UHGV virus genome: UHGV-0805728
Reading direction: 5' to 3' (one strand)
DNA from: a virus
DNA length: 12,967 nucleotides
The notes beneath the pieces are model-generated. The model was not told the DNA's origin, did not search any database, and saw only the letters and a list, made by a program, of their open reading frames with translations. Below, one piece after another: positions 804 through 11,507 of the stretch. Positions within the stretch are counted from its first letter, which is position 1, and each line of letters begins with the position of its first letter. The translations under genes and the position numbers were made by a program.

Positions 804-1163
804 CTACAGATGGTTGCTGAGGGTGTCAAGAAAATTATCCCGTTCTTTCTCAGAGTTTTCATGGGTGTAGCTGAAAAACATATCGAGAATAACCTTATTG
901 ATATATTCCAGCTCCTCTGTATTCAGATACTTATCAGGATCTACAATGACTTCCCAAATATCGTACAGACCGCACTCATGATATCCCCAACGCCACTCAA
1001 TTGTTAAACCGAGCGGCAAATCTTTACCGTCACAAACAACCTTCCATCTACAGATGTTGGTATCTGGACGCACCTGTGCACGGTATACCTGTACAAAATC
1101 CAATTTGAATTTGAGGTACTCGTCATACAATTTAAGTACAAAGCTCTCGATTTGTGGAGACAC
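804..1163 (-). CDS. hypothetical protein; probably the C-terminal part of a ~177-aa gene interrupted by a frame break (see 1223..1336)
   Basis: ORF-track 119 aa, but its start is a GTG at 1163 with no ribosome-binding site; its frame is open upstream to about 1247 and runs into the 37-aa ORF at an A5 run. Confidence 0.55.
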   Translation of the reverse strand: MSPQIESFVLKLYDEYLKFKLDFVQVYRAQVRPDTNICRWKVVCDGKDLPLGLTIEWRWGYHECGLYDIWEVIVDPDKYLNTEELEYINKVILDMFFSYTHENSEKERDNFLDTLSNHL

Positions 1164-1222
1164 TTTTGCAGCAAACTGTGCGTATTTGTACTTGCACTGG
1201 ATGATCTTTCTGCGTTTTGCAG

Positions 1223-1336
1223 TTAAATTTTTGCAGACAACTGTTCTTCAGTGTACCTCCACCTACGGTCAACAAACGCAACAGGGTCTTTGTCCCCATA
1301 GAGATCTTCCCAGTTAATCAGAAGCATACCTGTCAT
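1223..1336 (-). CDS. small ORF (37 aa), likely the N-terminal part of the frame-disrupted gene continuing in 804..1163
   Basis: ATG at 1336 overlaps the TGA of ORF 1333..1566 (ATGA); product MTGMLLINWEDLYGDKDPVAFVDRRWRYTEEQLSAKI; stop TAA at 1225-1223 immediately after an A5 run (1228-1232). Confidence 0.35.
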   Translation of the reverse strand: MTGMLLINWEDLYGDKDPVAFVDRRWRYTEEQLSAKI

Positions 1337-1566
1337 TCCTCCACAACTTCAAGGCCTTTACCGCCCCTCTCTGGAAGATTGCCGAGGGATAGGTAGTAAG
1401 TATAGTCTGGTGAGATTCTACCCGCTTGTGCCCCTGCAGCGATCAAATCTTTTCCAGTGATCATAACAACGTTTTTGTTTGCCGTCAACCGTTTTGCTAC
1501 TACAATTTTACCGACGCAATCGATCAGTGATGGATACCCTAAATCTGTAAGAAATTTAACTTTCAT
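1333..1566 (-). CDS. hypothetical protein (77 aa)
   Basis: ORF-track; ATG at 1566 preceded by AGGAGGTAG; no family recognised. Confidence 0.6.
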   Translation of the reverse strand: MKVKFLTDLGYPSLIDCVGKIVVAKRLTANKNVVMITGKDLIAAGAQAGRISPDYTYYLSLGNLPERGGKGLEVVEE

Positions 1567-1605
1567 GCTACCTCCTACTTCTACCGTCCCTGGTAAGATA
1601 AATTA

Positions 1606-2004
1606 TTACTGAACAGAACGCGGAGCTGGGAAGGATAACTCTTCTAAAGAGAAGATTTCATTTCCTACCACCCAAGTTGCTGGATCATCTGGATCAACAG
1701 GTTGGATAATCATTACCTCATCAACCTTGCACACACGTTTCCCACCTATGGTAGCGTCAGCCACTAACATACGCGGCTCTTCAGAAATGCACAGGTAGCC
1801 ACCTCGGCCCACTGTTCCTTCTACAGGATCCTGCCCTTTGACAACGATGAATACCTTTTCTCCTGTGGCGATATTACTTTGCACACGGACAGTTTGACCA
1901 ACTTTAGAGGTACCGATCTTGGTGGCTTCAAACATTAAATCCCGAATTACTGTTGCATAGTTGCCGGAAACTTTCTTACCTTCTTTGGTGATCTCAATCT
2001 TCAT
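1606..2004 (-). CDS. hypothetical protein (132 aa)
   Basis: ORF-track; start ATG at 2004 overlaps the stop of the upstream ORF (ATGA); no family recognised. Confidence 0.65.
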   Translation of the reverse strand: MKIEITKEGKKVSGNYATVIRDLMFEATKIGTSKVGQTVRVQSNIATGEKVFIVVKGQDPVEGTVGRGGYLCISEEPRMLVADATIGGKRVCKVDEVMIIQPVDPDDPATWVVGNEIFSLEELSFPAPRSVQ

Positions 2005-2273
2005 AATTTAGGCTCCTTAAATGAATCTATGTAGTCAATTAAATCCCAAGCATCGCGATGGGCTGTCAGAGGATATACTTCTCCGAGAGGGATCATAGCG
2101 GCAAGTCTATCAAAAACCCAGTCTGGACGCAACATTTTATGGTGATATTCCCACTCACCTTCTACAGACTTTTTCTGAGTGATCAGGATCTCTGTGTAGT
2201 GTTTAGCCTGTCTTGAGTAGATTGAAAATGACTTGTACATAAATGGCCCCTCTTGTTGAAAACAAGAATACAT
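2001..2273 (-). CDS. hypothetical protein (90 aa; alternative start ATG 2240 gives 79 aa)
   Basis: ORF-track; ATG at 2273 lies 2 nt after the TAG of the upstream ORF; the internal ATG at 2240 has the better ribosome-binding site (AGAGGGG, about 6 nt spacing). Confidence 0.55.
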   Translation of the reverse strand: MYSCFQQEGPFMYKSFSIYSRQAKHYTEILITQKKSVEGEWEYHHKMLRPDWVFDRLAAMIPLGEVYPLTAHRDAWDLIDYIDSFKEPKL

Positions 2274-2275
2274 AA

Positions 2276-2560
2276 CTACCAGGTCACTGTCAAGTAGGCA
2301 ACTGTGTTATTTTTCTCTGGCGATATGCCAACAACATCCACTTGCAGACCTCCTGCCCTTAAATCTCCGACAATGTGTGGGAAGTAATCCGAGAGGTGTG
2401 ATGGAAGATTTATCGAAAATCCGCACCCCAGAAAGCCTGCTAACGCTTTATTTTGTATCTCCCCTACAATCGCATCGTAAATAGAGTTAAGCTCGTCAGG
2501 AAGCGTTACAGGACGTTTTAGCGCTAACTGGTGTAATTTGTCCTTAGCACTCATTTTCAT
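2276..2560 (-). CDS. hypothetical protein (94 aa from ATG 2560; ORF track extends to a GTG at 2590)
   Basis: ATG 2560-2558 overlaps the TGA 2559-2557 of the methyltransferase gene (ATGA coupling); the GTG at 2590 would overlap that gene by 34 nt. Confidence 0.55.
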   Translation of the reverse strand: MKMSAKDKLHQLALKRPVTLPDELNSIYDAIVGEIQNKALAGFLGCGFSINLPSHLSDYFPHIVGDLRAGGLQVDVVGISPEKNNTVAYLTVTW

Positions 2561-3090
2561 TTCAGATCTACCTCTGGTGGTGCCAACCACATAAATGGCG
2601 GCAAATCTAAACGGTTTTTCTTATCCCACACAAAATATGCATATGCTTGCCCGTCAGTTCTGCCATTGGACTGGAATGATGGGCGCTTAGATATTGTAAT
2701 CACTGTGGTAGGGGCATTTTCAAGCCACCACTCAAAACGTGCTTTACTTTCCAAGAAGTTGAGACGCAAAAGCATAATAACTACGTCAGCATCTTTCAAC
2801 GCCTTTTCTACAAACTCACGGGCCAGGCTGTAGGGAGGGTTGGTTATAATGCAGTCAACATGGTTGTATTCTGTATTCAAGTAGTCCACACCTTCTTGAA
2901 TCTCTCCCCATGCAGATCCTAACGGCATACGGGAGTAGAATACCCCGTTAACACTGTTTCGGCACGGCTCCAGATAAGTCCAGTTCTCCGGGAAATCAAT
3001 TAAGTTGTATAGACCTTCTGCACACCAATCTGGTGTAACATACTCATCATAAGCATTACGTTGTTCGTCAGGTTTTCTAGCGCAAGTCAT
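2557..3090 (-). CDS. DNA N6-adenine methyltransferase, small phage Dam-like (177 aa)
   Basis: Catalytic motif IV DCIITNPPYS (NPPY, typical of N6-adenine methyltransferases) and size about 170-180 aa as in small phage Dam-like enzymes; ATG 3090 preceded by GGAGA. Target site not determinable. Confidence 0.6.
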   Translation of the reverse strand: MTCARKPDEQRNAYDEYVTPDWCAEGLYNLIDFPENWTYLEPCRNSVNGVFYSRMPLGSAWGEIQEGVDYLNTEYNHVDCIITNPPYSLAREFVEKALKDADVVIMLLRLNFLESKARFEWWLENAPTTVITISKRPSFQSNGRTDGQAYAYFVWDKKNRLDLPPFMWLAPPEVDLK

Positions 3091-3104
3091 GCAAATCTCC
3101 AGAT

Positions 3105-3130
3105 CATAAAAGCCCTCCGAAGAGGGCTTT
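3105..3130 (-). terminator. intrinsic-terminator-like hairpin with UUCG tetraloop between the ClpP-like gene and the methyltransferase gene
   Basis: Perfect 9-bp inverted repeat, plus strand aaagccctc (3109-3117) cgaa gagggcttt (3122-3130); as minus-strand RNA AAAGCCCUC-UUCG-GAGGGCUUU followed by UAUGAU. It sits 12 nt after the stop at 3142-3144. Confidence 0.45.
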
Positions 3131-3141
3131 AAGATTAATAT

Positions 3142-3855
3142 TTAAGCTTCTTCGACAATTCCTGCACCCAGGATTTTTTCATTAAGCTCTTTTGCGGTTT
3201 TAATAATATTATCCACCAGACGCTTACGGGTCTTGTCTTTCACCTGAACCTCTTCGCCACCGTTCAGAGTAGTCTTCAATTGAGACAGAATATCCTGAAG
3301 TTCAACGACAGAGAATCGCTGCAGATCTTCTGAGGTAATCTCGCCGAGAGCGATCCGGACGGTCTCACCACTTTCCATCTGCAGATTCAGGAACACGGTG
3401 TGAACATCATCTTTCACACCATTTGCTTTTGCAGACTCGACAGCATGAACCAGTTCGTCCAGGGAGGTGCACTGGTGAATCTCTGGCAGACCTGCTTCAC
3501 CTAGTACCCCTTCATCACCTTTTGCCAGGAGCTTTTTCGGTTTCTGCCCGTTCTGGATACGCTGAATATTTTCATCGTCCAGAATGATAGCTCCAGTTCT
3601 AGCTGCCAGCTCCTCTCCGTCCAACCACACTTCTCCACCAGCCGTGATGGATGCGATCTCATCTTCTGTCAGCACCCCACCGTAGATTTTTCGATCAGAC
3701 GTTCGAAACGTTTTTTCCAGTAGCTGACCTGAGTATTCATGTTCACACCGTTGCCATAAGTGCCACCTTGGTAGTAGTGGAACATAAATTCTGTGTCCGG
3801 AGCCACAGTGCGTTCTTTGCAACCCAGCCATAAGATTGTCCCAGCAGAGCAGCAC
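3142..3855 (-). CDS. ClpP-like peptidase, C-terminal fold continuation plus ~175-aa extension (second frame of a frame-disrupted gene)
   Basis: ORF-track 237 aa, but the first ~48 residues (MLLCWDNLMAGLQRTHCGSGHRIYVPLLPRWHLWQRCEHEY...) look out-of-frame. From about 3712 downward the frame reads ...GGVLTEDEIASITAGGEVWLDGEELAARTGAI, which aligns without gaps to the ClpP C-terminal region (recalled E. coli ...RDRFLSAPEAVEYGLVD) once joined to ORF 3669..4187. Confidence 0.5.
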   Translation of the reverse strand: MLLCWDNLMAGLQRTHCGSGHRIYVPLLPRWHLWQRCEHEYSGQLLEKTFRTSDRKIYGGVLTEDEIASITAGGEVWLDGEELAARTGAIILDDENIQRIQNGQKPKKLLAKGDEGVLGEAGLPEIHQCTSLDELVHAVESAKANGVKDDVHTVFLNLQMESGETVRIALGEITSEDLQRFSVVELQDILSQLKTTLNGGEEVQVKDKTRKRLVDNIIKTAKELNEKILGAGIVEEA

Positions 3856-4187
3856 ATCCCTTCAGCATGTACAACAACGCTTGCCTGAGACTCGCGGAAT
3901 GCCTGTAGATATGCCATTGCAATGTGCACGCAACCACCAGGGCTATTGATGATCACCCGAATGCTTTCTTCCGGCTGAGCCATACGGATCGTCTGCAGAC
4001 GAGACATATGATCTTGTAGGTCTTCCAAGTCGTCGATATAAAGAACGTGGTCAACAACAGGTGTTGGGTAGCTATATGTCTCCATAATACCACCTGGCAT
4101 ACCAAACATTTTATTACTCATCGGTTCGAAGCCGTTCTGTTTTTCTTTCATGCCGTGTACCATGGTGCTGCGAGGTGTTAAATTCAT
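3669..4187 (-). CDS. ClpP-family serine peptidase, N-terminal and catalytic portion (first frame of a frame-disrupted gene)
   Basis: ORF-track 172 aa with IINSPGG, GMCCSAGT (Ser-motif region) and FHYYQGG (His-motif region), collinear with E. coli ClpP INSPGG...GQAASMGA...IHQPLGG from memory; ATG 4187 preceded by TAAGGACC. The frame stops before the C-terminal part of the fold. Confidence 0.7.
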   Translation of the reverse strand: MNLTPRSTMVHGMKEKQNGFEPMSNKMFGMPGGIMETYSYPTPVVDHVLYIDDLEDLQDHMSRLQTIRMAQPEESIRVIINSPGGCVHIAMAYLQAFRESQASVVVHAEGMCCSAGTILWLGCKERTVAPDTEFMFHYYQGGTYGNGVNMNTQVSYWKKRFERLIEKSTVGC

Positions 4188-4248
4188 GTGAGGTCCTTAA
4201 TGTTGGAAAATTAAAAGCGATCTATTTAAACCTGATTCTCATTTGCCT

Positions 4249-4560
4249 TTATTTGGCAATTACCATGGAATACTTGCGATTGTCAGAAGCATCACAGGTC
4301 AACGATTGCCAGTCTACCACATACCACGTGTCATTGTCAACAATTACTTTATCACCTGTTCTGTAAAAGGTGTTGCTTTCAATAACACGAGACTCAGTGA
4401 AGAATCGGTGTCTTCGCTCACGTAGTAGAGCCAAGTTGATTATATTACCACCGCTGTCCTTAATCCACACATTCTTGTATCCTTTATTTGCCAAAATTGT
4501 CTCGCCGTTATAGACAAACAGGCAGTAGATTTTATTCAATCTCTCTTGTATCGTAGCCAT
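4249..4560 (-). CDS. hypothetical protein (103 aa)
   Basis: ORF-track; ATG 4560 preceded by GAGGAGAAG and by a near-consensus promoter (4589-4617). Confidence 0.65.
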   Translation of the reverse strand: MATIQERLNKIYCLFVYNGETILANKGYKNVWIKDSGGNIINLALLRERRHRFFTESRVIESNTFYRTGDKVIVDNDTWYVVDWQSLTCDASDNRKYSMVIAK

Positions 4561-4588
4561 ACTGTTCTTCTCCTCGTTTTGTCAGGCA

Positions 4589-4617
4589 ATAATACCTAAA
4601 GCTTGTCTGTTTGTCAA
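4589..4617 (-). promoter_or_regulatory. sigma70-type (phage early-like) promoter P1: -35 TTGACA, 17-nt spacer, -10 TATTAT
   Basis: Minus strand reads TTGACA (4617-4612), aacagacaagctttagg, TATTAT (4594-4589); predicted transcription start about 4582, some 22 nt upstream of ATG 4560. Confidence 0.55.
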
Positions 4618-4635
4618 CAAGTGTTTTAGATATTC

Positions 4636-4656
4636 AAGGGTGGAATAACCACCCTT
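4636..4656 (-). other. RNA hairpin directly after the phoH stop codon (8-bp stem AAGGGTGG/CCACCCTT, 5-nt loop)
   Basis: Perfect inverted repeat, plus strand 4636-4643 and 4649-4656, 5 nt after the TAA at 4664-4662; no U-tract follows, so terminator function is uncertain. Confidence 0.35.
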
Positions 4657-4661
4657 ATATG

Positions 4662-5450
4662 TTACTCGGAAACAGGAGTCCAAATACGGTTTGCACGGTC
4701 CTCAATAAGATTGAGTGCAATCTGACGACCCAGCCCAGAACGAACAACATCGTCAGGACTATCAAAGCTAATCATCCCAACTTCAGGATCTGGATGTCGT
4801 GTAAAGAAATCTGTCACCCATGCAAGGCCAGATTTACCAGGGATGTCTCGTTGGCTATTGTCCCCCATAATTACAAGGGTGGCCTGATCGGAAATCCTTG
4901 TGATAATTGACAACATTTCTTCAGGGTTAGTTTGCTGTGCCTCGTCAATTAGGACAAAGCATCGTTCATCGAAACTACGACCACGAATGCTTTCAACTTC
5001 ACAAATCTCGATACGGCTGTTCTGACCGTCTCCCAGCATTGCTGCAAAAGCACCTTTGCCAACACGACGACAAATCGTGTCCATCATACTCCGAAGATAG
5101 GGCCACAGTTTCTGCATTGCATTCCCTGGTTTAAATCCTGAAGTCTTTCCTGTCTGAACGTAAGGGCGTGCAACAATGATCTTATCAATCTCGTTTTTAC
5201 GTAACAGATCTCCTGCATAGGCAGATGCCATAAATGTCTTACCAGACCCAAACACACCGTTTACGATAATAATCTTACGTGACCCTAAATAATCAAGATA
5301 CTTTTGCTGCTTCTTATTCATCGGTCGGAGAGCTGGAGCGGTGTGCTCTCGTTCGTCAGCAAATTTCTCAGCAGCTTTACGCAAACGATCAGATTTACGA
5401 GCCTCTCTGGCTTCATCACGCATGCGTTTTGTTTCTTTAGCTCGACCCAT
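4662..5450 (-). CDS. phoH: PhoH-like ATPase (262 aa) with a ~43-aa charged N-terminal extension
   Basis: Walker A GVFGSGKT, Walker B FVLIDEAQ, and GDNSQRD, typical of PhoH-family proteins; ATG 5450 preceded by AAAGGAG. Confidence 0.9.
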   Translation of the reverse strand: MGRAKETKRMRDEAREARKSDRLRKAAEKFADEREHTAPALRPMNKKQQKYLDYLGSRKIIIVNGVFGSGKTFMASAYAGDLLRKNEIDKIIVARPYVQTGKTSGFKPGNAMQKLWPYLRSMMDTICRRVGKGAFAAMLGDGQNSRIEICEVESIRGRSFDERCFVLIDEAQQTNPEEMLSIITRISDQATLVIMGDNSQRDIPGKSGLAWVTDFFTRHPDPEVGMISFDSPDDVVRSGLGRQIALNLIEDRANRIWTPVSE

Positions 5451-5488
5451 GGTGGGACTCCTTTCAGATTGAGATGTGTCTGGAACTT

Positions 5489-5839
5489 TTACTGCAACAG
5501 TTTTTCAATAGCCGCTTCCATGCTGCTTGCAACAGCCTGAACTCGGATATTCATCTCTTCTTGGTGGATCAGCTCCTTAAGCTCTTTAACGGTAAATTCC
5601 TTAGAGAAACCTTCCACCATAATATTGTGTAAGGCTTCTTGCGTGTCTACTTGCAAGAACTTCTCCAGTTTGTTGGCAGAGGCTTCTAAATCAGCCCGAA
5701 TACGAGGATCATCTGTGCGATTCAGCATTAGGCGCAAGCCATCGAGATTAGTAGAAATAGCGTCAGCATGTTGAGTAACTAGCCGTGGCAAAATGAGATC
5801 TACAAACTTATTAGCCAAATCAATACGTTCTTGTGTCAC
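5489..5839 (-). CDS. hypothetical protein (116 aa), predicted helical
   Basis: ORF-track; GTG start at 5839 preceded by GAGGGGG and overlapping the TGA of the 37-aa Lys-rich ORF (GTGA). Confidence 0.6.
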   Translation of the reverse strand: MTQERIDLANKFVDLILPRLVTQHADAISTNLDGLRLMLNRTDDPRIRADLEASANKLEKFLQVDTQEALHNIMVEGFSKEFTVKELKELIHQEEMNIRVQAVASSMEAAIEKLLQ

Positions 5840-5949
5840 TGTTGCACCCCCTCTTCGTCCTCATGATGTTTCTTTTCACGCTTGTGTTTTTTCTTAAGCT
5901 CAAGCGCAATCTCTTTTTTGTACGCCTTCTTCAAGGCCTTTTTAGCCAT
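5836..5949 (-). CDS. small Lys-rich basic peptide (37 aa)
   Basis: ATG at 5949 preceded by AGAGGGGG and by consensus promoter P2; product MAKKALKKAYKKEIALELKKKHKREKKHHEDEEGVQQ. Not in ORF track (under 60 aa). Confidence 0.4.
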   Translation of the reverse strand: MAKKALKKAYKKEIALELKKKHKREKKHHEDEEGVQQ

Positions 5950-5980
5950 TTGGCACCCCCTCTGCTTTCATTTTACGATA

Positions 5981-6010
5981 ATTATACCCGTCTAAACAAA
6001 GCTTTGTCAA
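5981..6010 (-). promoter_or_regulatory. sigma70-type (phage early-like) promoter P2: -35 TTGACA, 18-nt spacer, -10 TATAAT
   Basis: Minus strand reads TTGACA (6010-6005), aagctttgtttagacggg, TATAAT (5986-5981), starting 4 nt after the nrdG stop; predicted transcription start about 5974, upstream of ATG 5949. Confidence 0.6.
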
Positions 6011-6013
6011 CAA

Positions 6014-6487
6014 TTAGTCTACCTGAACCCACCCACCTGCTACTTTTTTAAACATTCTTTGGTTATCGCTTCCTCGGAACGGTTTCTTGGTTGGCAAATC
6101 TTTTATATACTTACCATCAATGATGATATCAGCCAGTTTAAGAACATCACTAGAGATATGGTCAAATGTGAACCCAGTATACACAAGAATAGTTTTCTTG
6201 TCACCAAATTTTTCCTTAATTTTCTCCATCAGGCCAATAATACCTGGCTCATTATAGTATGCCAAGGGTTCTCCACCCAGCAGAGAGATACCGCACACAG
6301 ACGGGTTGTCCAAATCTGACAAGATTTTTTGCAAGTCTTCCTCGGTGAACTCTCTCCCCTTATCTTTTGACCAAAATGCCTGATTAAAGCAACCAGGGCA
6401 AGCGTGTGGGCACCCAGATACCCACAAGGCAGTTCTAATACCTGGCCCTTCGGTGTAAGATATTTCTGTGTATCCGGCAATGTTCAT
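6014..6487 (-). CDS. nrdG: anaerobic ribonucleotide reductase activating protein (radical-SAM activase), 157 aa from ATG 6487
   Basis: Cys cluster GCPHACPGCFN characteristic of NrdG-type activases; the ATG at 6487 has an ACGGAG ribosome-binding site and an ATGA overlap with the upstream small ORF. The ORF-track start at 6505 has no ribosome-binding site. Confidence 0.85.
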   Translation of the reverse strand: MNIAGYTEISYTEGPGIRTALWVSGCPHACPGCFNQAFWSKDKGREFTEEDLQKILSDLDNPSVCGISLLGGEPLAYYNEPGIIGLMEKIKEKFGDKKTILVYTGFTFDHISSDVLKLADIIIDGKYIKDLPTKKPFRGSDNQRMFKKVAGGWVQVD

Positions 6488-6600
6488 AGATACTCCGTAC
6501 CACATTCAGGGCAATACCAAATAAAATCATCCAGCGCCTTGCACCAACGAAGATTACAATGACAACCGCACTTGCAAATTTTATAAATACCTGTAGACAT
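6484..6600 (-). CDS. small Cys-rich zinc-ribbon-like protein (38 aa)
   Basis: ATG 6600 preceded by GAGG at about 8 nt; product MSTGIYKICKCGCHCNLRWCKALDDFIWYCPECGTEYL with 7 Cys (CKCGCHC...CPEC); stop overlaps the nrdG ATG (ATGA). Not in ORF track (under 60 aa). Confidence 0.4.
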   Translation of the reverse strand: MSTGIYKICKCGCHCNLRWCKALDDFIWYCPECGTEYL

Positions 6601-6630
6601 ACTGCACCTCATAGTTCACTGTGTATCAAC

Positions 6631-6660
6631 AATATGCCACATCCTTGTGACTTTTGTCAA
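6631..6660 (-). promoter_or_regulatory. candidate sigma70-type promoter P3 (perfect -35 TTGACA, weak -10 CATATT or TATTGT)
   Basis: TTGACA at 6660-6655 begins 3 nt after the nrdD stop, as in P1 and P2; the -10 element is only a 4/6 match. Confidence 0.3.
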
Positions 6661-6663
6661 GCA

Positions 6664-6903
6664 TCAGCAACCACAACTTCCATAGTGCTTAACTCGCTCG
6701 ATAACTTCAGCTTGCTTGCCTCTATTGTAAGGACGTGAGTTAGGACTGGAAAGGTATCCAGACACACGTCGAATTACACTGATCGTTCCCTCTTCGTGGT
6801 TTCCACAGTCTGGACATACAAAGCCTTTAGCTGTCGCGCTGAACTCACCAGAGAAACCACACTTGAGACATTTATCCACGGGCTGGTTAATACCAAAATA
6901 CAT
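6664..6903 (-). CDS. nrdD: anaerobic ribonucleotide reductase NrdD, C-terminal glycyl-radical/zinc-ribbon segment (third frame piece)
   Basis: YFGINQPVDKCLKCGFSGEF...CPDCGNH...RRVSGYL matches the recalled E. coli NrdD C-terminus (YMGINVPVDRCFECGFTGEF...CPKCGNH...RRVCGYLG); its frame is open only from 6909 and overlaps the central ORF. Confidence 0.8.
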   Translation of the reverse strand: MYFGINQPVDKCLKCGFSGEFSATAKGFVCPDCGNHEEGTISVIRRVSGYLSSPNSRPYNRGKQAEVIERVKHYGSCGC

Positions 6904-8555
6904 AATGTGTTATACCCGAAGTCAACAAGAGCCTCTAAAGCATCCAGGTTGTTTTTCAGGTTAGGTGTCTCTATGTATCCAATGTTGCCACCAGAGGAGA
7001 TCATAGCAAAACCTTCTTCATACTTCCACTTATCAAAAGGTGAACTATTGATCCATACTGGTTGGTGGAAACTGTTGGTGATATATTCATGCTCGTGCTT
7101 CAATACCTCAGGATATTCACGATCCAGACAGGTTGCAGCTTTGTAGCATAAGCTTTCAGAAGGGGTGCCGTACAAGCTGAATGCTAGACCACTTTCCTTT
7201 TTGTACCGATCACAAGCATCTTTCATGTGCTGAAGGATTCCAAGAGCTAAAGCCTTGTCTCCCTCTCTCCCCAAAATCTGACAGGTTTCATACACACCAA
7301 TATACCCAATACTGATGGAAGCGTACCCGTCATAGAAGAGTTTATCAATACTCTCTTCAGGATCCAAGCGAGCAAGAGCGCCTTCACACCACATGATGGG
7401 GTTCTGACCTGCCTTTGTCCCTTTTAGGCGGTTAACCCTTACAAGGTGAGCTTCATATGCCAAATCCAGATACTCGTCAAGAACGGTAAAGAAGTCAACA
7501 CCTTCTGTTTTAGCTTTTGCTGCAATCATTGGTAGGTTGAGGCTAACAACACCCAAGTTGAATCTGCCGAGGTATTTCTCCTCACCTGTTTCTAAGTCAT
7601 TGTATTTGCTAAGAAAACTCCGGCAACCCATGCTCGTTACTTTGCCATCTGTAGAACCTGTCACCTTACGATTTAGCGGAACAGAAACAAAGTCAGGATA
7701 AATTCGCTCTGCAGAGCATTCCAGAGCTAATCGTTTCAAATCATAGTTAGGATCCTCAGGGTTCATGTTGACACCCTCTTCTAAGAAGAACAGCACTTTA
7801 GGGAACACAGGTGTGATCCGTTCTTCACCAAGACCCATTTTGTGGACTTTCAGGTAGTTTTTGGTAATCATTCTACCAAATACCGAGGTATCAAGTCCTA
7901 AACTTAATGTTATGAACGGAGTTTGCCCGTTGACAGAAGTTAATGTGTTGATTTGATAAAGCAACGTCTGCATACTGTCAAACACGTCTTTATCGGTCAT
8001 CTGCATTGCAACGCCTTCAGCATCCGGCAACCAATGCTCCTGACAAAATTTAAGGTTCTTCTCATAGGTAGCTTCAGCATACTGTGCCAGATAATGATCA
8101 ATATGGCTCATAGTCTGACCACCATATTGAGCACTAGCCACTGCACTAGAGATTTGGCTAAGGATTGTTGTTGCAACCCCTATTGACTTAGGCTTGCTGA
8201 CATGGGCGTTACCAATGTTGAATCCGTTTTCCAGCATATCTGGATAATTTACCAAACAACAGTTTGTTAGAGGGCTGATCAGATAGTCAAGATCATGTAC
8301 ATGGATGAAGCCTTTTATTGTGCTCTTCGGAGACACGGTCTGGCAGGATCTGTGTTGATGCAAGGTGTTTGCTAAGGATGCCTGCAAGCAGGTCACGATG
8401 AGTGTGTACATGATTGGTAGGCTTATTTGCGTTTTCTTTTGTAAATTCATCACAAGTGCGATCCAAGAAGCCACTAATATCTGCAAGAAGTTTTCCACCT
8501 GCCTCTCTGTTATTATCCCTTGTCTGTCTGTATTGGATGTATTCTCTGGCTGCAC
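6774..8555 (-). CDS. nrdD: anaerobic ribonucleotide reductase NrdD, central catalytic segment (second frame piece)
   Basis: From about 8315 the frame reads KGFIHVHDLDY...NIGNAHVSKPKSIG...QYGGQT, collinear with recalled E. coli NrdD (GDIHYHDLDY...MGNAEIEPPKSIS...IYGGTT). The first ~80 and last ~43 residues of the 593-aa ORF look out-of-frame. Confidence 0.85.
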   Translation of the reverse strand: MQPENTSNTDRQGIITERQVENFLQILVASWIALVMNLQKKTQISLPIMYTLIVTCLQASLANTLHQHRSCQTVSPKSTIKGFIHVHDLDYLISPLTNCCLVNYPDMLENGFNIGNAHVSKPKSIGVATTILSQISSAVASAQYGGQTMSHIDHYLAQYAEATYEKNLKFCQEHWLPDAEGVAMQMTDKDVFDSMQTLLYQINTLTSVNGQTPFITLSLGLDTSVFGRMITKNYLKVHKMGLGEERITPVFPKVLFFLEEGVNMNPEDPNYDLKRLALECSAERIYPDFVSVPLNRKVTGSTDGKVTSMGCRSFLSKYNDLETGEEKYLGRFNLGVVSLNLPMIAAKAKTEGVDFFTVLDEYLDLAYEAHLVRVNRLKGTKAGQNPIMWCEGALARLDPEESIDKLFYDGYASISIGYIGVYETCQILGREGDKALALGILQHMKDACDRYKKESGLAFSLYGTPSESLCYKAATCLDREYPEVLKHEHEYITNSFHQPVWINSSPFDKWKYEEGFAMISSGGNIGYIETPNLKNNLDALEALVDFGYNTLCILVLTSPWINVSSVVSLVSSARQLKALYVQTVETTKRERSV

Positions 8556-8787
8556 ATTTTAAACCCATATCCATAAGAGCATCTTCAACAAGGATATGGA
8601 TATTTTTTACAGAGATTGTGCCCTGATCGGCTGGTAGATTGTTAGCAACAGCTTCATTAACCGCGCAGGCGATCCGGTAAGCTTCTTCTTCAGTATGTCC
8701 AGACTCAAGTAAGGCGGACTCTGCCGCCTTGATCACCTTAATTCCGTTATAGACCTCTTCTCTACCGTCTCGTTTTACAACTTTCAC
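8293..8787 (-). CDS. nrdD: anaerobic ribonucleotide reductase NrdD, N-terminal ATP-cone segment (first frame piece)
   Basis: MKVVKRDGREEVY... and ENANKPTNHVHTHRDLLAGILSKH match the NrdD N-terminus (recalled E. coli NENANKDSKVIPTQRDLLAGIVAKH); ATG 8787 overlaps the nrdC stop (ATGA); frame ends at 8293 right after an A4 run. Confidence 0.8.
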   Translation of the reverse strand: MKVVKRDGREEVYNGIKVIKAAESALLESGHTEEEAYRIACAVNEAVANNLPADQGTISVKNIHILVEDALMDMGLKCAAREYIQYRQTRDNNREAGGKLLADISGFLDRTCDEFTKENANKPTNHVHTHRDLLAGILSKHLASTQILPDRVSEEHNKRLHPCT

Positions 8788-9062
8788 TTTTTCTCTCCAA
8801 AATTGTTCTTAACAAAAGAGATGAAATCGTCAGCACCACCAATGTGGACACTGTCAAGGTCGCTTTCTAAGAAGATTTGAGGTAACGTTCTGGGAACAAT
8901 TGGGCTACACTTCTTAATAAGCTCTTCTTTTGTATAGCCCTCCCCTAGCGTCTTGTATACAAAAGGTAGACCTTTACTGACTGCAAATTCTTTTGCTCTT
9001 ACACAATGTGGACAATTATCCTTACCGTAAATAATGATGAAAAAAGATTTTTCACAACTCAT
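8784..9062 (-). CDS. nrdC: glutaredoxin-like redoxin (92 aa)
   Basis: CPHC active-site motif near the N-terminus, TLPQIF (cis-Pro region) and HIGGADDF (GG motif), positioned between nrdB and nrdD. Confidence 0.8.
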   Translation of the reverse strand: MSCEKSFFIIIYGKDNCPHCVRAKEFAVSKGLPFVYKTLGEGYTKEELIKKCSPIVPRTLPQIFLESDLDSVHIGGADDFISFVKNNFGEKK

Positions 9063-9065
9063 ATA

Positions 9066-10154
9066 TTAAAACTCCCAAATTTCTTCTTCAGCGTCGTTAA
9101 CAGTTGTGTTGACGCGGTAGTCAGTGTTCGACATTTCTTGGTTCGCCGTCTGTTGCAATGAAGGTTTCATCCACACCTGCATAAACGGTAGCGGGTCCTT
9201 TGTTGGCGGCACAAAGTCTTTGTCGATGTCGTAGTAATCATAAATCGGTGAGCAGTTATAGTCAACCCATTCTTTAAGCAACGGTGAGTTAAGACCTATA
9301 ATCGCTCTTCCTTCGCTGAAAATATAGTCACTCCAACCGTACTCCTTGGTTCGTACTTCATCAAGAATCTCTTTTAACTCTCCCTTTATCTCAAGGAAGC
9401 TTTTCTCCCATGCTGGATCATTAAGCAGGATATCAATGATGGCAAAATCACCTTTCGAATGCAGCATTTCGTCAAGCATGATTTTTTGAACAAGCTGCGC
9501 CACCTGAACAAAAATACCCTGTTCAGCTACTGCGAAAGTGCATGCAAAACTTGCAATAAACTCAATACTCTCCAGAGCTAAAAGTGCAAAAAGCGCTCTA
9601 AGAATGCATTTCCGTACAATATCTTCTTCAACACTGGAAGGATCCAGTCGGTATTTTGCACCAATAACCTCAAGCTCTTGCATATATTTGACAATAACCC
9701 CAGATCTGCTTAGCACGTTCTGGTTTTCCTGAATTTCTTCTATGATCTCGCGAGCATTAGGTAGGCACTGTCTAACAATCTCTGAGTAAGTAAGTGCGTG
9801 AAGAACTTCAATCTCCGACTGCTTCATCAACAGAGCGAAAAGCTCACTATTAGTGATGAATGGTGAAAAGAGGCAGATGATTGATCTTGCCGCAACGCTA
9901 TCAGCCTCCCATTGCCACATCAAGGTCTGCACCATCACGTCATAAGTTGACTTTGAGCATGTTACAAAATCTGAAATAGATTGCGACAAATCCACTTCAT
10001 CCTCTGCCCAATCCTGTTCTTTTTGTTTTTTATACAGTTCAAACAGTTGTGGGTATTTTTTATTGATAGAGTCATACATCCCCATTTGCTGTCCAAGAAA
10101 CAGAGGATAGTCACCAGTTTTATGAGCGGTGTTCTCAGCATTAAATACAGCCAT
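9066..10154 (-). CDS. nrdB: ribonucleotide reductase class Ia small (beta) subunit (362 aa)
   Basis: Full-length collinearity with E. coli NrdB from memory, including ESIEFIASFACTFAVAE (iron-ligand region; E. coli EAIRFYVSFACSFAFAE) and the acidic C-terminal tail ...EEEIWEF; ATG 10154 preceded by AGAGG. Confidence 0.9.
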   Translation of the reverse strand: MAVFNAENTAHKTGDYPLFLGQQMGMYDSINKKYPQLFELYKKQKEQDWAEDEVDLSQSISDFVTCSKSTYDVMVQTLMWQWEADSVAARSIICLFSPFITNSELFALLMKQSEIEVLHALTYSEIVRQCLPNAREIIEEIQENQNVLSRSGVIVKYMQELEVIGAKYRLDPSSVEEDIVRKCILRALFALLALESIEFIASFACTFAVAEQGIFVQVAQLVQKIMLDEMLHSKGDFAIIDILLNDPAWEKSFLEIKGELKEILDEVRTKEYGWSDYIFSEGRAIIGLNSPLLKEWVDYNCSPIYDYYDIDKDFVPPTKDPLPFMQVWMKPSLQQTANQEMSNTDYRVNTTVNDAEEEIWEF

Positions 10155-10165
10155 TATTCTACCTC

Positions 10166-10186
10166 TAAAATGGGGCCGAAGCCCCC
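10166..10186 (-). terminator. GC hairpin with UUCG tetraloop plus U4 tract between nrdA and nrdB (terminator or attenuator-like)
   Basis: Plus strand ggggc (10172-10176) cgaa gcccc (10181-10185); as minus-strand RNA GGGGC-UUCG-GCCCC followed by AUUUUAG, ending about 12 nt before the nrdB ATG. Confidence 0.4.
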
Positions 10187-10193
10187 TTTAAAA

Positions 10194-11507
10194 TTACAGT
10201 GCACAACTTTCGCAGTATGGATCTTCAACTGAACTATCTGCGATCAAAGGATAGTTCTTTCTGGTTTCATCTTCAGCCTGTTTCTTGGCATGAAGTTCCT
10301 CTGCCAGTGAGTCACCAGCACCAACCCTAGAGTTTAAATAATACCATGTCTTCATCCCGAATTTAGTGGCACGGATAAGGTACCCTAGTTGCTCCTTCAT
10401 TGAAATTTTACCATCTTTCAACTTGGTGTAATCTATGTATAAATCAGCGCTGATTGCCTGACCTGTGAATTTTTGAATCACGGCATACATATCGATCATG
10501 TCGTTGGTATCAACGTCCCAAGCCGAAGTGTAATACTCTTTCAACTCATCGTATTCAGGAACGATAAACAGCACCTGCCCTTGTGGAGACTTTTTAAAGA
10601 TAATGTGCTCACGGACAGGATAAACCCCGTTAGTGGTGTTTGTTGCCAGCGAAGAGCTTTCATTAGGCATATATGCTTCAAGAACGCTATTACGTAGCCC
10701 ACCATTTTCAATGATTTGTTTACGTAACCCTTCCCAATCCTGTTTAAGAGAAGGATCTTTCACCACACTGTCGACCTCTTTGTTATAGGTGTCGATTGGT
10801 AACCAACCCTCCGGGTATTTTGTTTTATGCATCCACTCACAGACACCACGCTCTTTTGCCAATCGTAAACTTGCTTTGTGCAAGCTGTAGCTGTGAAGCT
10901 CTGCAAGATCATGGACAAGCTGTTTACTTTCCGGAGATCCGTAAGTAACCTTGTGGCTGGCAATAAAATGTGCAACATTGGTAAGGCCAACCCCGATAGA
11001 TCTGCGTTTTTTAACCGTGCTCTCCATATTCTCATACGGATATGTCATGATTTCCATAACATTGTCAATCATAAGCACCGTGTAGTATGCAACATCTTCA
11101 TACTCCTCTGGGGTAACCCTCCCAGCTACAAGAGATGATAGGAAGCACAATGCAACCTCACCATCATCAGCATCGTACTTGAAGATATTACGCATATCTG
11201 AATAGCCTTTTGTCGGAAGGGCTATCTCGGCACACAGGTTGCTTGAATAGATTACATCTTTAAAAGGTGTATGTCTATTCATCTCGTCTGTCCAGTATAC
11301 GTACAGTCTTCCTACCTCAGTACGCTGCGTGATAAGTTCAGCAGCAAGATCTCTAGCACGGATCCATGTTTTAGGAATACTGTCATCTTTAGCGATCCGA
11401 TCAACCTCTGCATCAAACTCTTCCATAGACATGGTGAAGATGCCTTCATGTAGCTGAGGTGCGTGCTTATAAGAAACAAGCATCCAATCTAAATTTTTAG
11501 TCCACAC
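10194..11507 (-). CDS. nrdA: ribonucleotide reductase class Ia large (alpha) subunit, C-terminal catalytic segment (second frame piece)
   Basis: 437-aa ORF with SNLCAEIALPT (active-site Cys loop; recalled E. coli SNLCLEIALPT) and collinear downstream sequence; its GTG at 11507 has no ribosome-binding site. Confidence 0.9.
   Translation of the reverse strand: MWTKNLDWMLVSYKHAPQLHEGIFTMSMEEFDAEVDRIAKDDSIPKTWIRARDLAAELITQRTEVGRLYVYWTDEMNRHTPFKDVIYSSNLCAEIALPTKGYSDMRNIFKYDADDGEVALCFLSSLVAGRVTPEEYEDVAYYTVLMIDNVMEIMTYPYENMESTVKKRRSIGVGLTNVAHFIASHKVTYGSPESKQLVHDLAELHSYSLHKASLRLAKERGVCEWMHKTKYPEGWLPIDTYNKEVDSVVKDPSLKQDWEGLRKQIIENGGLRNSVLEAYMPNESSSLATNTTNGVYPVREHIIFKKSPQGQVLFIVPEYDELKEYYTSAWDVDTNDMIDMYAVIQKFTGQAISADLYIDYTKLKDGKISMKEQLGYLIRATKFGMKTWYYLNSRVGAGDSLAEELHAKKQAEDETRKNYPLIADSSVEDPYCESCAL

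What the first reader, a model, noticed from the sequence alone, without database searches (positions are those of the whole stretch)
6895..6912. nrdD C-terminal junction: -1 frame change just before the zinc-ribbon and glycyl-radical domain
The central frame reads ...ALEALVDFGYNTLCILV and then degenerates, while the -1 frame is open only from 6909 and reads HIMYFGINQPVDKC...RRVSGYL. The glycyl-radical domain is therefore out of frame with the catalytic barrel. With the N-terminal break this leaves nrdD in three pieces. There is no long homopolymer here, so an indel error is less obvious than at the other sites.
Basis: partly seen in the sequence, partly recalled or inferred. Interest (0 to 1): 0.7.

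Follow-up and report, generated by a model that had tools for sequence, protein, structure and literature searches.

The report
One-base deletion artefact splitting phage nrdD
The frame break near the end of this phage's anaerobic ribonucleotide reductase gene is a single missing A, one of five private one-base indels in a sequence that is otherwise base-for-base identical to assemblies with an intact gene, so it is almost certainly a sequencing or assembly error and not biology.

Summary
On the minus strand, nrdD (6664..8787) changes frame at 6910-6912, just before the zinc ribbon and the glycyl-radical motif. A second break at 8313-8316 leaves the gene in three pieces.

The cause is a one-base deletion, AAA to AA, in the Lys626 codon. 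All seven related sequences aligned base by base here have AAA. At least 118 Vequintavirus records match the gene at full length, and those with annotation list an intact nrdD or one split only by a homing-endonuclease insert. Across 2,428 phage records, 2,425 read through this junction in one frame.

The window is an rV5-like Escherichia phage. A Logan contig, L010, matches window 1228-11500 with zero substitutions. It differs only by one-base indels and encodes an intact 707-aa NrdD. The three window pieces reproduce 706 of those 707 residues.

The window has five private changes, and all are one-base indels of T on the + strand. Each lies in or within 2 nt of a T run, and each breaks a conserved gene (a hypothetical gene, the ClpP-like gene, nrdD twice, nrdA). 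There are no private substitutions.

The site has no slippery heptamer, no unusual downstream RNA structure and no conservation of the shift. The best reading is a sequencing or assembly indel artefact. Interest is low.

The parts
6664..8787 (-). Whole nrdD (class III anaerobic ribonucleotide reductase large subunit). It is 2124 nt, the same length as the intact gene, because one insertion and one deletion cancel.
   Evidence: Frame 0 encodes aa 1-158 and 627-707, and frame 1 encodes aa 158-625, of the intact 707-aa NrdD of L010/L008.
8314..8787 (-). Piece 1: NrdD aa 1-158 (ATP-cone and linker). In the window it runs on out of frame to a stop at 8293.
   Evidence: Pfam ATP-cone E=8.6e-15; frame mapping.
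8313..8316 (-). First nrdD lesion: the coding strand has AAAA where L008, L009, L010, Aya and nimi have AAA (+1 insertion in a short homopolymer).
6912..8315 (-). Piece 2: NrdD aa 158-625 (catalytic barrel), in a frame shifted relative to pieces 1 and 3.
   Evidence: Pfam NRDD E=6.8e-127.
6910..6911 (-). The lesion of the finding: the coding strand has AA where all seven aligned relatives have AAA (codon Lys626 of ...DFGYKHIMYFGIN...). It is a 1-nt deletion.
   Evidence: rV5, Aya, nimi, ev147, L008, L009, L010 all have the extra base.
6664..6909 (-). Piece 3: NrdD aa 627-707 plus the stop codon. It holds the zinc ribbon (CLKC...CPDC) and the glycyl-radical motif RRVSGYL, in the same frame as piece 1.
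   Evidence: Pfam NRDD 500-562 and Gly_radical; ungapped alignment to T4 NrdD 1H78 across the junction.
6014..6505 (-). nrdG, the radical-SAM activase of NrdD. It is intact. The start used in relatives corresponds to window 6487.
   Evidence: Pfam Fer4_12 E=4.4e-42 and Radical_SAM; a 157-aa gene in L007-L010.
1228..1232 (+). Window-private indel: T5 where relatives have T6. It splits a 174-aa hypothetical gene into ORFs 804..1163 and 1132..1299.
   Evidence: Contig L010 starts exactly here.
3685..3686 (+). Window-private 1-nt deletion (GTAGTATTTTT becomes GTAGATTTTT). It splits the ClpP-like protease gene into ORFs 3142..3855 and 3669..4187.
   Evidence: The gene is intact (348-349 aa, CLP_protease) in L007, L008 and L010.
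11501..11501 (+). Window-private inserted T (TTTTTAG[T]CC). It splits nrdA into a 337-aa piece and a 437-aa piece.
   Evidence: nrdA is intact at 771 aa in L007-L009. Contig L010 ends exactly at 11500.

Best explanation
The frame change at 6910-6912 is a one-base deletion (AAA to AA in the Lys626 codon of nrdD) introduced by sequencing or assembly. It is not a property of the phage genome. The real phage, an rV5-like Vequintavirus of E. coli, most likely carries a normal single-ORF 707-aa NrdD. Shown: the lesion, its uniqueness among the sequences compared, the indel-only spectrum of private differences, and the intact gene in a contig identical at every aligned base. Inferred: that the indels arose in base-calling or consensus building and not in the phage DNA. 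I have no reads to confirm that step.
For: (1) Logan contig L010 covers window 1228-11500 with 0 mismatches and only one-base gaps. L008 covers the whole window with 8 mismatches and 5 gaps. Both encode an intact 707-aa NrdD.
(2) The three window pieces reproduce 706 of 707 residues of that protein exactly. Only Lys626 is lost.
(3) The window has five private changes against L008, L009, L010 and Aya. All are one-base indels, and there are no private substitutions. By contrast, window versus Aya has 248 substitutions but only one other indel, an in-frame 3-nt one.
(4) All five private indels break conserved genes: a hypothetical gene, the ClpP-like gene, nrdD twice, and nrdA. Of 10 indel events that separate real lineages, 6 are intergenic, 3 are in-frame multiples of 3, and 1 is a 1-nt indel inside a small annotated hypothetical ORF. 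Fisher p=0.002.
(5) All five are a T on the + strand, in or within 2 nt of a T run. The chance that all five are T is 0.0025, which points to a systematic error process.
(6) The two ends of contig L010 fall to the base on two of the private indels, at 1227/1228 and 11500/11501. Assembly graphs break where reads disagree, so this is the expected pattern if those reads are heterogeneous at these positions.
(7) A 64-aa probe across the junction is read in one frame in 2,425 of 2,428 phage records, including 119 records at 95% identity or more.
Against: No reads or quality values are available, so a real, very recent mutation or a minor subpopulation cannot be formally excluded. The run is short (A3), and two of the five indels are not inside a run, so this is not the textbook long-homopolymer error. 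The source and sequencing platform of the window could not be identified. Its broken products are not in the gene-position collection, and the junction string is absent from three collections.
Confidence: 0.9

Rival explanations
1. True, very recent pseudogenisation. The sequenced phage stock really carries the deletion and the other four frameshifts. This could follow laboratory propagation on a host whose own NrdAB/NrdDG make the phage copies dispensable, or the variants could be real minor variants captured in the consensus.
For: The host E. coli encodes its own ribonucleotide reductases (established knowledge), so loss could be tolerated. The ends of contig L010 coincide with two of the indels, which shows that some heterogeneity exists in at least one read set, and that heterogeneity could be biological.
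Against: There are five independent frameshifts and no private substitution in 13 kb. There is no other decay in nrdD, since 706 of 707 residues are identical. All five indels are the same base on the same strand next to T runs. They also hit an unrelated ClpP-like gene and a hypothetical gene. Every other record inspected has these genes intact.
Confidence: 0.08
2. Programmed recoding. Full-length NrdD would be made by a +1 shift at 8313-8316 and a -1 ribosomal frameshift at 6910-6912.
For: Pieces 1 and 3 are in the same frame and the total length is unchanged. The first site reads AAA-AGG, a lysine codon followed by an arginine codon that is rare in E. coli. From my own knowledge this resembles +1-prone sites.
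Against: The site of the finding reads GGG UAU AAC ACA, which has no X XXY YYZ slippery heptamer (direct reading). The downstream 136 nt fold no better than shuffles (z=-0.55). The shift is absent from every relative, including the contig identical at every aligned base. A run of 2-4 A is too short for transcriptional slippage. Two efficient recoding events in one gene would be needed.
Confidence: 0.01
3. A functional gene in pieces. The three ORFs would be translated separately and assemble, with the 79-aa C-terminal ORF (ATG at 6903) acting as a free-standing glycyl-radical module.
For: Relatives such as FFH2, nomo and L007 tolerate nrdD annotated as two ORFs around an HNH endonuclease gene. 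Split RNR genes and stand-alone glycyl-radical 'spare part' proteins (GrcA for pyruvate formate-lyase) exist (my own knowledge).
Against: The central piece has no start codon at the junction. Its only in-frame upstream start is a GTG 77 codons into foreign-frame sequence. The break points are one-base indels and not insertions of mobile DNA. They are not shared by any relative.
Confidence: 0.01

Closest known systems
Indel sequencing or assembly errors that create apparent frameshifts (split genes) in phage and metagenome assemblies
   Same: The changes are private one-base indels in or next to short homopolymers. Several genes are hit in one short stretch, there are no accompanying substitutions, and the gene is intact in near-identical assemblies.
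   Different: The runs are short (T2-T6), and two of the five events sit 1-2 nt outside a run. The platform is unknown.
rV5 (Vequintavirus) nrdD, rv5_gp108, and T4 NrdD (PDB 1H78/1H7A)
   Same: The repaired protein is 97.5% identical to rV5 NrdD over 707 aa. It aligns to T4 NrdD residues 6-604 at E=1.4e-168, ungapped through the junction, the four zinc-ribbon cysteines and the glycyl-radical motif. The gene order is the same: nrdA, nrdB, grx, nrdD, small ORF, nrdG.
   Different: In the window the ORF is interrupted twice by one-base indels.
nrdD split by a homing-endonuclease insert in FFH2, nomo, magaca and slur16 (and the T4 nrdD group I intron)
   Same: These relatives also annotate nrdD as more than one ORF.
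   Different: There the interruption is an insert of about 800 bp carrying an HNH endonuclease ORF, at a different place (equivalent to window 7926/7927). The window has no insert, only one-base indels.
Programmed -1 ribosomal frameshifting (for example dnaX and phage tail-chaperone genes)
   Same: Two overlapping reading frames encode successive parts of one protein.
   Different: There is no slippery heptamer, no stimulatory structure and no conservation among relatives.

Membership tests
Class III anaerobic ribonucleotide reductase NrdD | N-terminal ATP-cone plus NRDD catalytic barrel | tested here: met
   Pfam ATP-cone E=8.6e-15 (piece 1) and NRDD E=6.8e-127 (piece 2).
Class III anaerobic ribonucleotide reductase NrdD | C-terminal four-Cys zinc ribbon and glycyl-radical motif (RVxGY) | tested here: met
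   CLKC...CPDC and RRVSGYL in piece 3. Pfam Gly_radical E=1.7e-13. These align to the T4 NrdD zinc-ribbon cysteines and the Gly580 position.
Class III anaerobic ribonucleotide reductase NrdD | Adjacent radical-SAM activase NrdG | tested here: met
   ORF 6014..6505(-): Fer4_12 E=4.4e-42 and Radical_SAM.
Class III anaerobic ribonucleotide reductase NrdD | One uninterrupted reading frame that puts the barrel and the glycyl-radical domain on one polypeptide | tested here: not met
   There are three frames in the window. The feature is met in L008, L009, L010, rV5, nimi and ev147.
Sequencing or assembly indel artefact | Private differences from the nearest sequences are indels only, without substitutions | tested here: met
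   0 mismatches versus L010 over 10.3 kb. Five private indels and no private substitution against L008, L009, L010 and Aya.
Sequencing or assembly indel artefact | Several unrelated conserved genes broken in the same stretch, placed as if unselected | tested here: met
   Four genes are broken by five one-base indels. Natural indels in the clade are intergenic or in-frame, apart from one 1-nt indel in a small hypothetical ORF. Fisher p=0.002.
Sequencing or assembly indel artefact | Systematic context (same base, homopolymer-associated) | tested here: met
   All five are a T on the + strand. Three are inside T runs and two lie 1-2 nt from a T5 run. P(all five T)=0.0025.
Sequencing or assembly indel artefact | Reads disagree with the consensus at the site | not testable with these tools
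   No reads are available. The only indirect hint is that the ends of contig L010 fall on two of the private indels.
Programmed -1 ribosomal frameshift | Slippery heptamer X XXY YYZ at the shift site | tested here: not met
   The site reads UUC GGG UAU AAC ACA UUA. No heptamer allows re-pairing.
Programmed -1 ribosomal frameshift | Stable downstream stimulatory structure | tested here: not met
   The fold of 6790-6925(-) gives -33.9 kcal/mol, z=-0.55, and 52 of 200 shuffles fold as well.
Programmed -1 ribosomal frameshift | The two-frame arrangement is conserved in relatives | tested here: not met
   2,425 of 2,428 phage records read through in one frame. All aligned relatives have AAA.
True (decaying) pseudogene | Additional lesions or relaxed substitution pattern in the gene | tested here: not met
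   706 of 707 residues are identical to the intact NrdD of L010/L008, and there are no substitutions.
True (decaying) pseudogene | The same lesion seen in independent sequences | tested here: inconclusive
   The junction string is absent from viral, metagenome and genome collections. The intact string is also absent from viral contigs, so that scan has little power. None of the seven relatives aligned here carries the deletion. At lower resolution, 119 Vequintavirus records match a 64-aa probe across the junction at 95% identity or more, and 2,425 of 2,428 records overall read it in one frame.

The most novel reading that the evidence does not exclude
The phage stock really carries both nrdD frameshifts and still makes active enzyme. 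This could happen by low-level +1 slippage at AAA-AGG plus an unconventional -1 event at UAU-AAC. It could also happen by separate translation of the 79-aa zinc-ribbon and glycyl-radical ORF (ATG at 6903) as a detachable 'spare-part' radical domain that docks on the barrel, by analogy with GrcA and pyruvate formate-lyase.
Probability: 0.01. Interest if true: 0.55.

Novelty: not a real feature. Interest (0 to 1): 0.05.

Why it matters
If the break were real, it would mean a phage class III ribonucleotide reductase expressed by double recoding or as a split enzyme with a free glycyl-radical module, which would be unusual. The evidence instead shows a data-quality problem. The practical value is as a warning. 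This window, and probably the whole assembly it comes from, carries about one spurious one-base indel per 2.6 kb. Every 'frameshift', 'split gene' or 'pseudogene' call from it, including the nrdD N-terminal break, the nrdA break and the ClpP-like break, should be discounted. Gene calls should be made after frame correction against near-identical assemblies.

Tried and rejected
1. Locating the window's source. Exact-product look-ups for three broken fragments (the 79-aa, 164-aa and 337-aa pieces) found nothing. Exact scans for the frameshifted junction in viral, metagenome and genome collections found nothing.
2. Positive control. A scan for the intact junction string in viral contigs also returned nothing, so the negative result for that collection is uninformative.
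3. Literature search for ERR975171: 0 papers, so the platform of that run is unknown.
4. Programmed frameshift: rejected, because there is no heptamer, no structure and no conservation.
5. RNA element or intron at or near the break: an Rfam gathering scan of the window and of the FFH2 locus gave 0 hits.
6. True pseudogene: considered and ranked low because the private changes are indels only and there is no other decay.
7. dN/dS on the broken gene: not run, because there are no substitutions against L010 to count.

Full report
**What is in the sequence**

All genes of the window lie on the minus strand. The region holds nrdA, nrdB, a glutaredoxin, nrdD, a small Cys-rich ORF and nrdG (Pfam).

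nrdD occupies 6664..8787 and is read in three pieces:
- Piece 1 is 8787..8314 and encodes aa 1-158, including the ATP-cone.
- Piece 2 is 8315..6912 and encodes aa 158-625, the NRDD barrel, in a shifted frame.
- Piece 3 is 6909..6664 and encodes aa 627-707, in the same frame as piece 1.

At the junction the coding strand reads GAC TTC GGG TAT AAC ACA TTA TGT. In the central frame this gives D F G Y N T L C and runs on to a stop at 6774. The C-terminal frame is closed by TAA (6912-6910) and opens at 6909 with CAC ATT ATG TAT TTT GGT, giving H I M Y F G I N Q P V D K C.

The lesion also sits just upstream of the zinc ribbon (CLKC...CPDC) and the glycyl-radical motif RRVSGYL.

**What the lesion is**

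The window is an rV5-like Escherichia phage (Vequintavirus). At least 118 phage records match nrdD over at least 80% of its length at 90-98% identity, and the best match to the whole window is 98.0% identical.

I aligned the window with rV5, EcoIv14a_Aya, nimi and rV5_ev147. The window has AA where all of them have AAA, so TAT AAA CAC (Y K H) has become TAT AAC AC. It also has AAAA at 8313-8316 where they have AAA or AGA. One insertion and one deletion cancel, so the gene keeps its 2124-nt length, and pieces 1 and 3 share a frame.

**Nearest sequences**

A look-up of contigs encoding the window's exact NrdB protein returned five Logan assemblies:
- L010 (run ERR975171, a 10,273-bp contig) covers window 1228-11500 with 0 mismatches and four one-base gaps.
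- L008 (run ERR11010907) covers the whole window with 8 mismatches and five one-base gaps.
- L008, L009 and L010 all carry an intact 707-aa nrdD. L007, L008 and L009 carry an intact 771-aa nrdA. L007, L008 and L010 carry an intact ClpP-like gene.

The window's three nrdD pieces reproduce 706 of the 707 residues of the L010/L008 protein exactly. Only Lys626 is lost.

That intact protein is 97.5% identical to rV5 NrdD. It aligns to the T4 NrdD crystal-structure sequence (1H78) over residues 103-701 at E=1.4e-168. The alignment is ungapped across the junction: DFGYKHIMYFGIN against DYAAQHLDYFGVN.

**The pattern of private differences**

Measured against L008, L009, L010 and Aya, the window has exactly five private changes, and all are one-base indels:

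| Window position | Change (+ strand) | Gene broken |
|---|---|---|
| 1228-1232 | T6 to T5 | 174-aa hypothetical gene |
| 3685/3686 | GTAGTATTTTT to GTAGATTTTT | ClpP-like protease |
| 6910-6911 | T3 to T2 | nrdD (this finding) |
| 8313-8316 | T3 to T4 | nrdD |
| 11501 | TTTTTAG[T]CC, inserted T | nrdA |

There is no private substitution. Every mismatch against L008 is shared with L010, L009 or Aya.

For comparison, the window and Aya differ by 248 substitutions but by only one other indel, an in-frame 3-nt one.

Among 10 indel events that separate real lineages in this alignment:
- 6 are intergenic;
- 3 are in-frame multiples of three;
- 1 is a 1-nt indel inside a small annotated hypothetical ORF.

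The five private ones are all frame-breaking inside conserved genes. Fisher p=0.002.

All five involve a T on the + strand, in or within 2 nt of a T run. The chance that all five are T is 0.0025. An indel-only, single-base-type, selection-blind spectrum is what an error process produces, not evolution.

**An indirect look at the reads**

Contig L010 begins exactly at the T5/T6 run (window 1228). It ends exactly at window 11500, one base before the inserted T.

De Bruijn graph contigs end where reads disagree. This coincidence therefore implies that the ERR975171 reads are heterogeneous at precisely these two positions. That fits a recurrent, context-dependent read error or a minor variant, which another assembler resolved the wrong way.

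L010 has its own T5-to-T4 indel at window 2615 that truncates the methyltransferase. L011 (DRR023333) also has broken nrdA and nrdD. Such errors therefore recur in assemblies of this phage group. This paragraph is inference, because I could not see the reads.

**Tests of biological alternatives**

*Programmed -1 frameshifting*
- The site UUC GGG UAU AAC ACA has no X XXY YYZ heptamer.
- The 136 nt from the site downstream fold at -33.9 kcal/mol, no better than shuffles (z=-0.55).
- A 64-aa probe spanning the junction is read in one frame in 2,425 of 2,428 phage records, including 119 at 95% identity or more.
- Runs of 2-4 A are too short for transcriptional slippage (established knowledge).

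*A true pseudogene*
- This would need five frameshifts and no substitution, and the gene shows no other decay.

*A functional split enzyme*
- This is not supported. The central piece has no start codon at the break, and no relative shares the arrangement.
- The splits that do exist in relatives (FFH2, nomo, magaca, slur16, L007) are an insert of about 800 bp with an HNH endonuclease ORF at a different position, equivalent to window 7926/7927.

**What could not be done**

- The window's own source and platform were not found. Its broken products are not in the gene-position collection.
- The frameshifted junction string is absent from the viral, metagenome and genome collections. The viral scan has little power, because the intact string is absent there too.
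- No paper mentions ERR975171.

**Verdict**

About 0.08 remains for a real recent mutation or minor variant, and about 0.01 each for recoding and for a functional split gene.

It is not a new feature. The underlying gene is an ordinary Vequintavirus nrdD. Interest is 0.05. The other 'frameshift' sites in this window have the same cause and should be discounted together.

Noticed in passing
window 8313-8316; 11501; 3685/3686; 1228-1232: There are four further window-private one-base indels of the same kind. They break nrdD (N-terminal junction), nrdA (337 aa plus 437 aa), the ClpP-like protease gene and a 174-aa hypothetical gene. All are a T on the + strand, in or next to T runs.
   Followed up: yes
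L010 ends = window 1228 and 11500: The Logan contig from run ERR975171 is identical to the window at every aligned base. It starts and ends exactly at two of the window's private indels, which suggests the reads of that run are heterogeneous there. The window may be another assembly of the same or a sister data set.
   Followed up: partly
L003 (FFH2) 1377-2260; L007 12231-13003; equivalent to window 7926/7927: Several relatives (FFH2, nomo, magaca, slur16, rV5_ev146, L007) have an insert of about 800 bp with an HNH homing-endonuclease ORF splitting nrdD into 287-aa and roughly 391-427-aa ORFs. The Rfam gathering scan found no group I intron, so it is undecided whether this is an intron or a free-standing endonuclease gene with a truly split NrdD.
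   Followed up: partly
window 6484-6612 (-): A small Cys-rich ORF (MSTGIYKICKCGCHCNLRWCKALDDFIWYCPECGTEYL, 38 aa from the start used in relatives) lies between nrdD and nrdG and overlaps the nrdG start. It is called as a 38-aa gene in L007-L010 and is labelled 'ribonucleotide reductase' in FFH2. It may be a zinc-binding mini-protein. Its function is unknown.
   Followed up: no
window 6014-6505 (-): This ORF is clearly NrdG, the radical-SAM activase (Fer4_12 E=4.4e-42). The homologue is annotated 'putative minor capsid protein' in rV5 (gp111) and in phage nimi, which is a propagated misannotation.
   Followed up: partly
phage records MG065635, MG065653, MG065654, MG065666 and about 16 more: About 20 records named 'Campylobacter phage', with host given as Campylobacter jejuni, are about 93% identical to this E. 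coli rV5-like region over its full length. The host label looks doubtful and may reflect contamination or mislabelling.
   Followed up: no
L010 at window-equivalent 2615; L011 (DRR023333) nrdA, grx and nrdD: Other public assemblies of this phage group carry their own one-base homopolymer indels. L010 has T4 in place of T5, which truncates the methyltransferase to 160 aa. L011 has nrdA split into 510 aa plus 280 aa, and its nrdD is also broken.
   Followed up: partly
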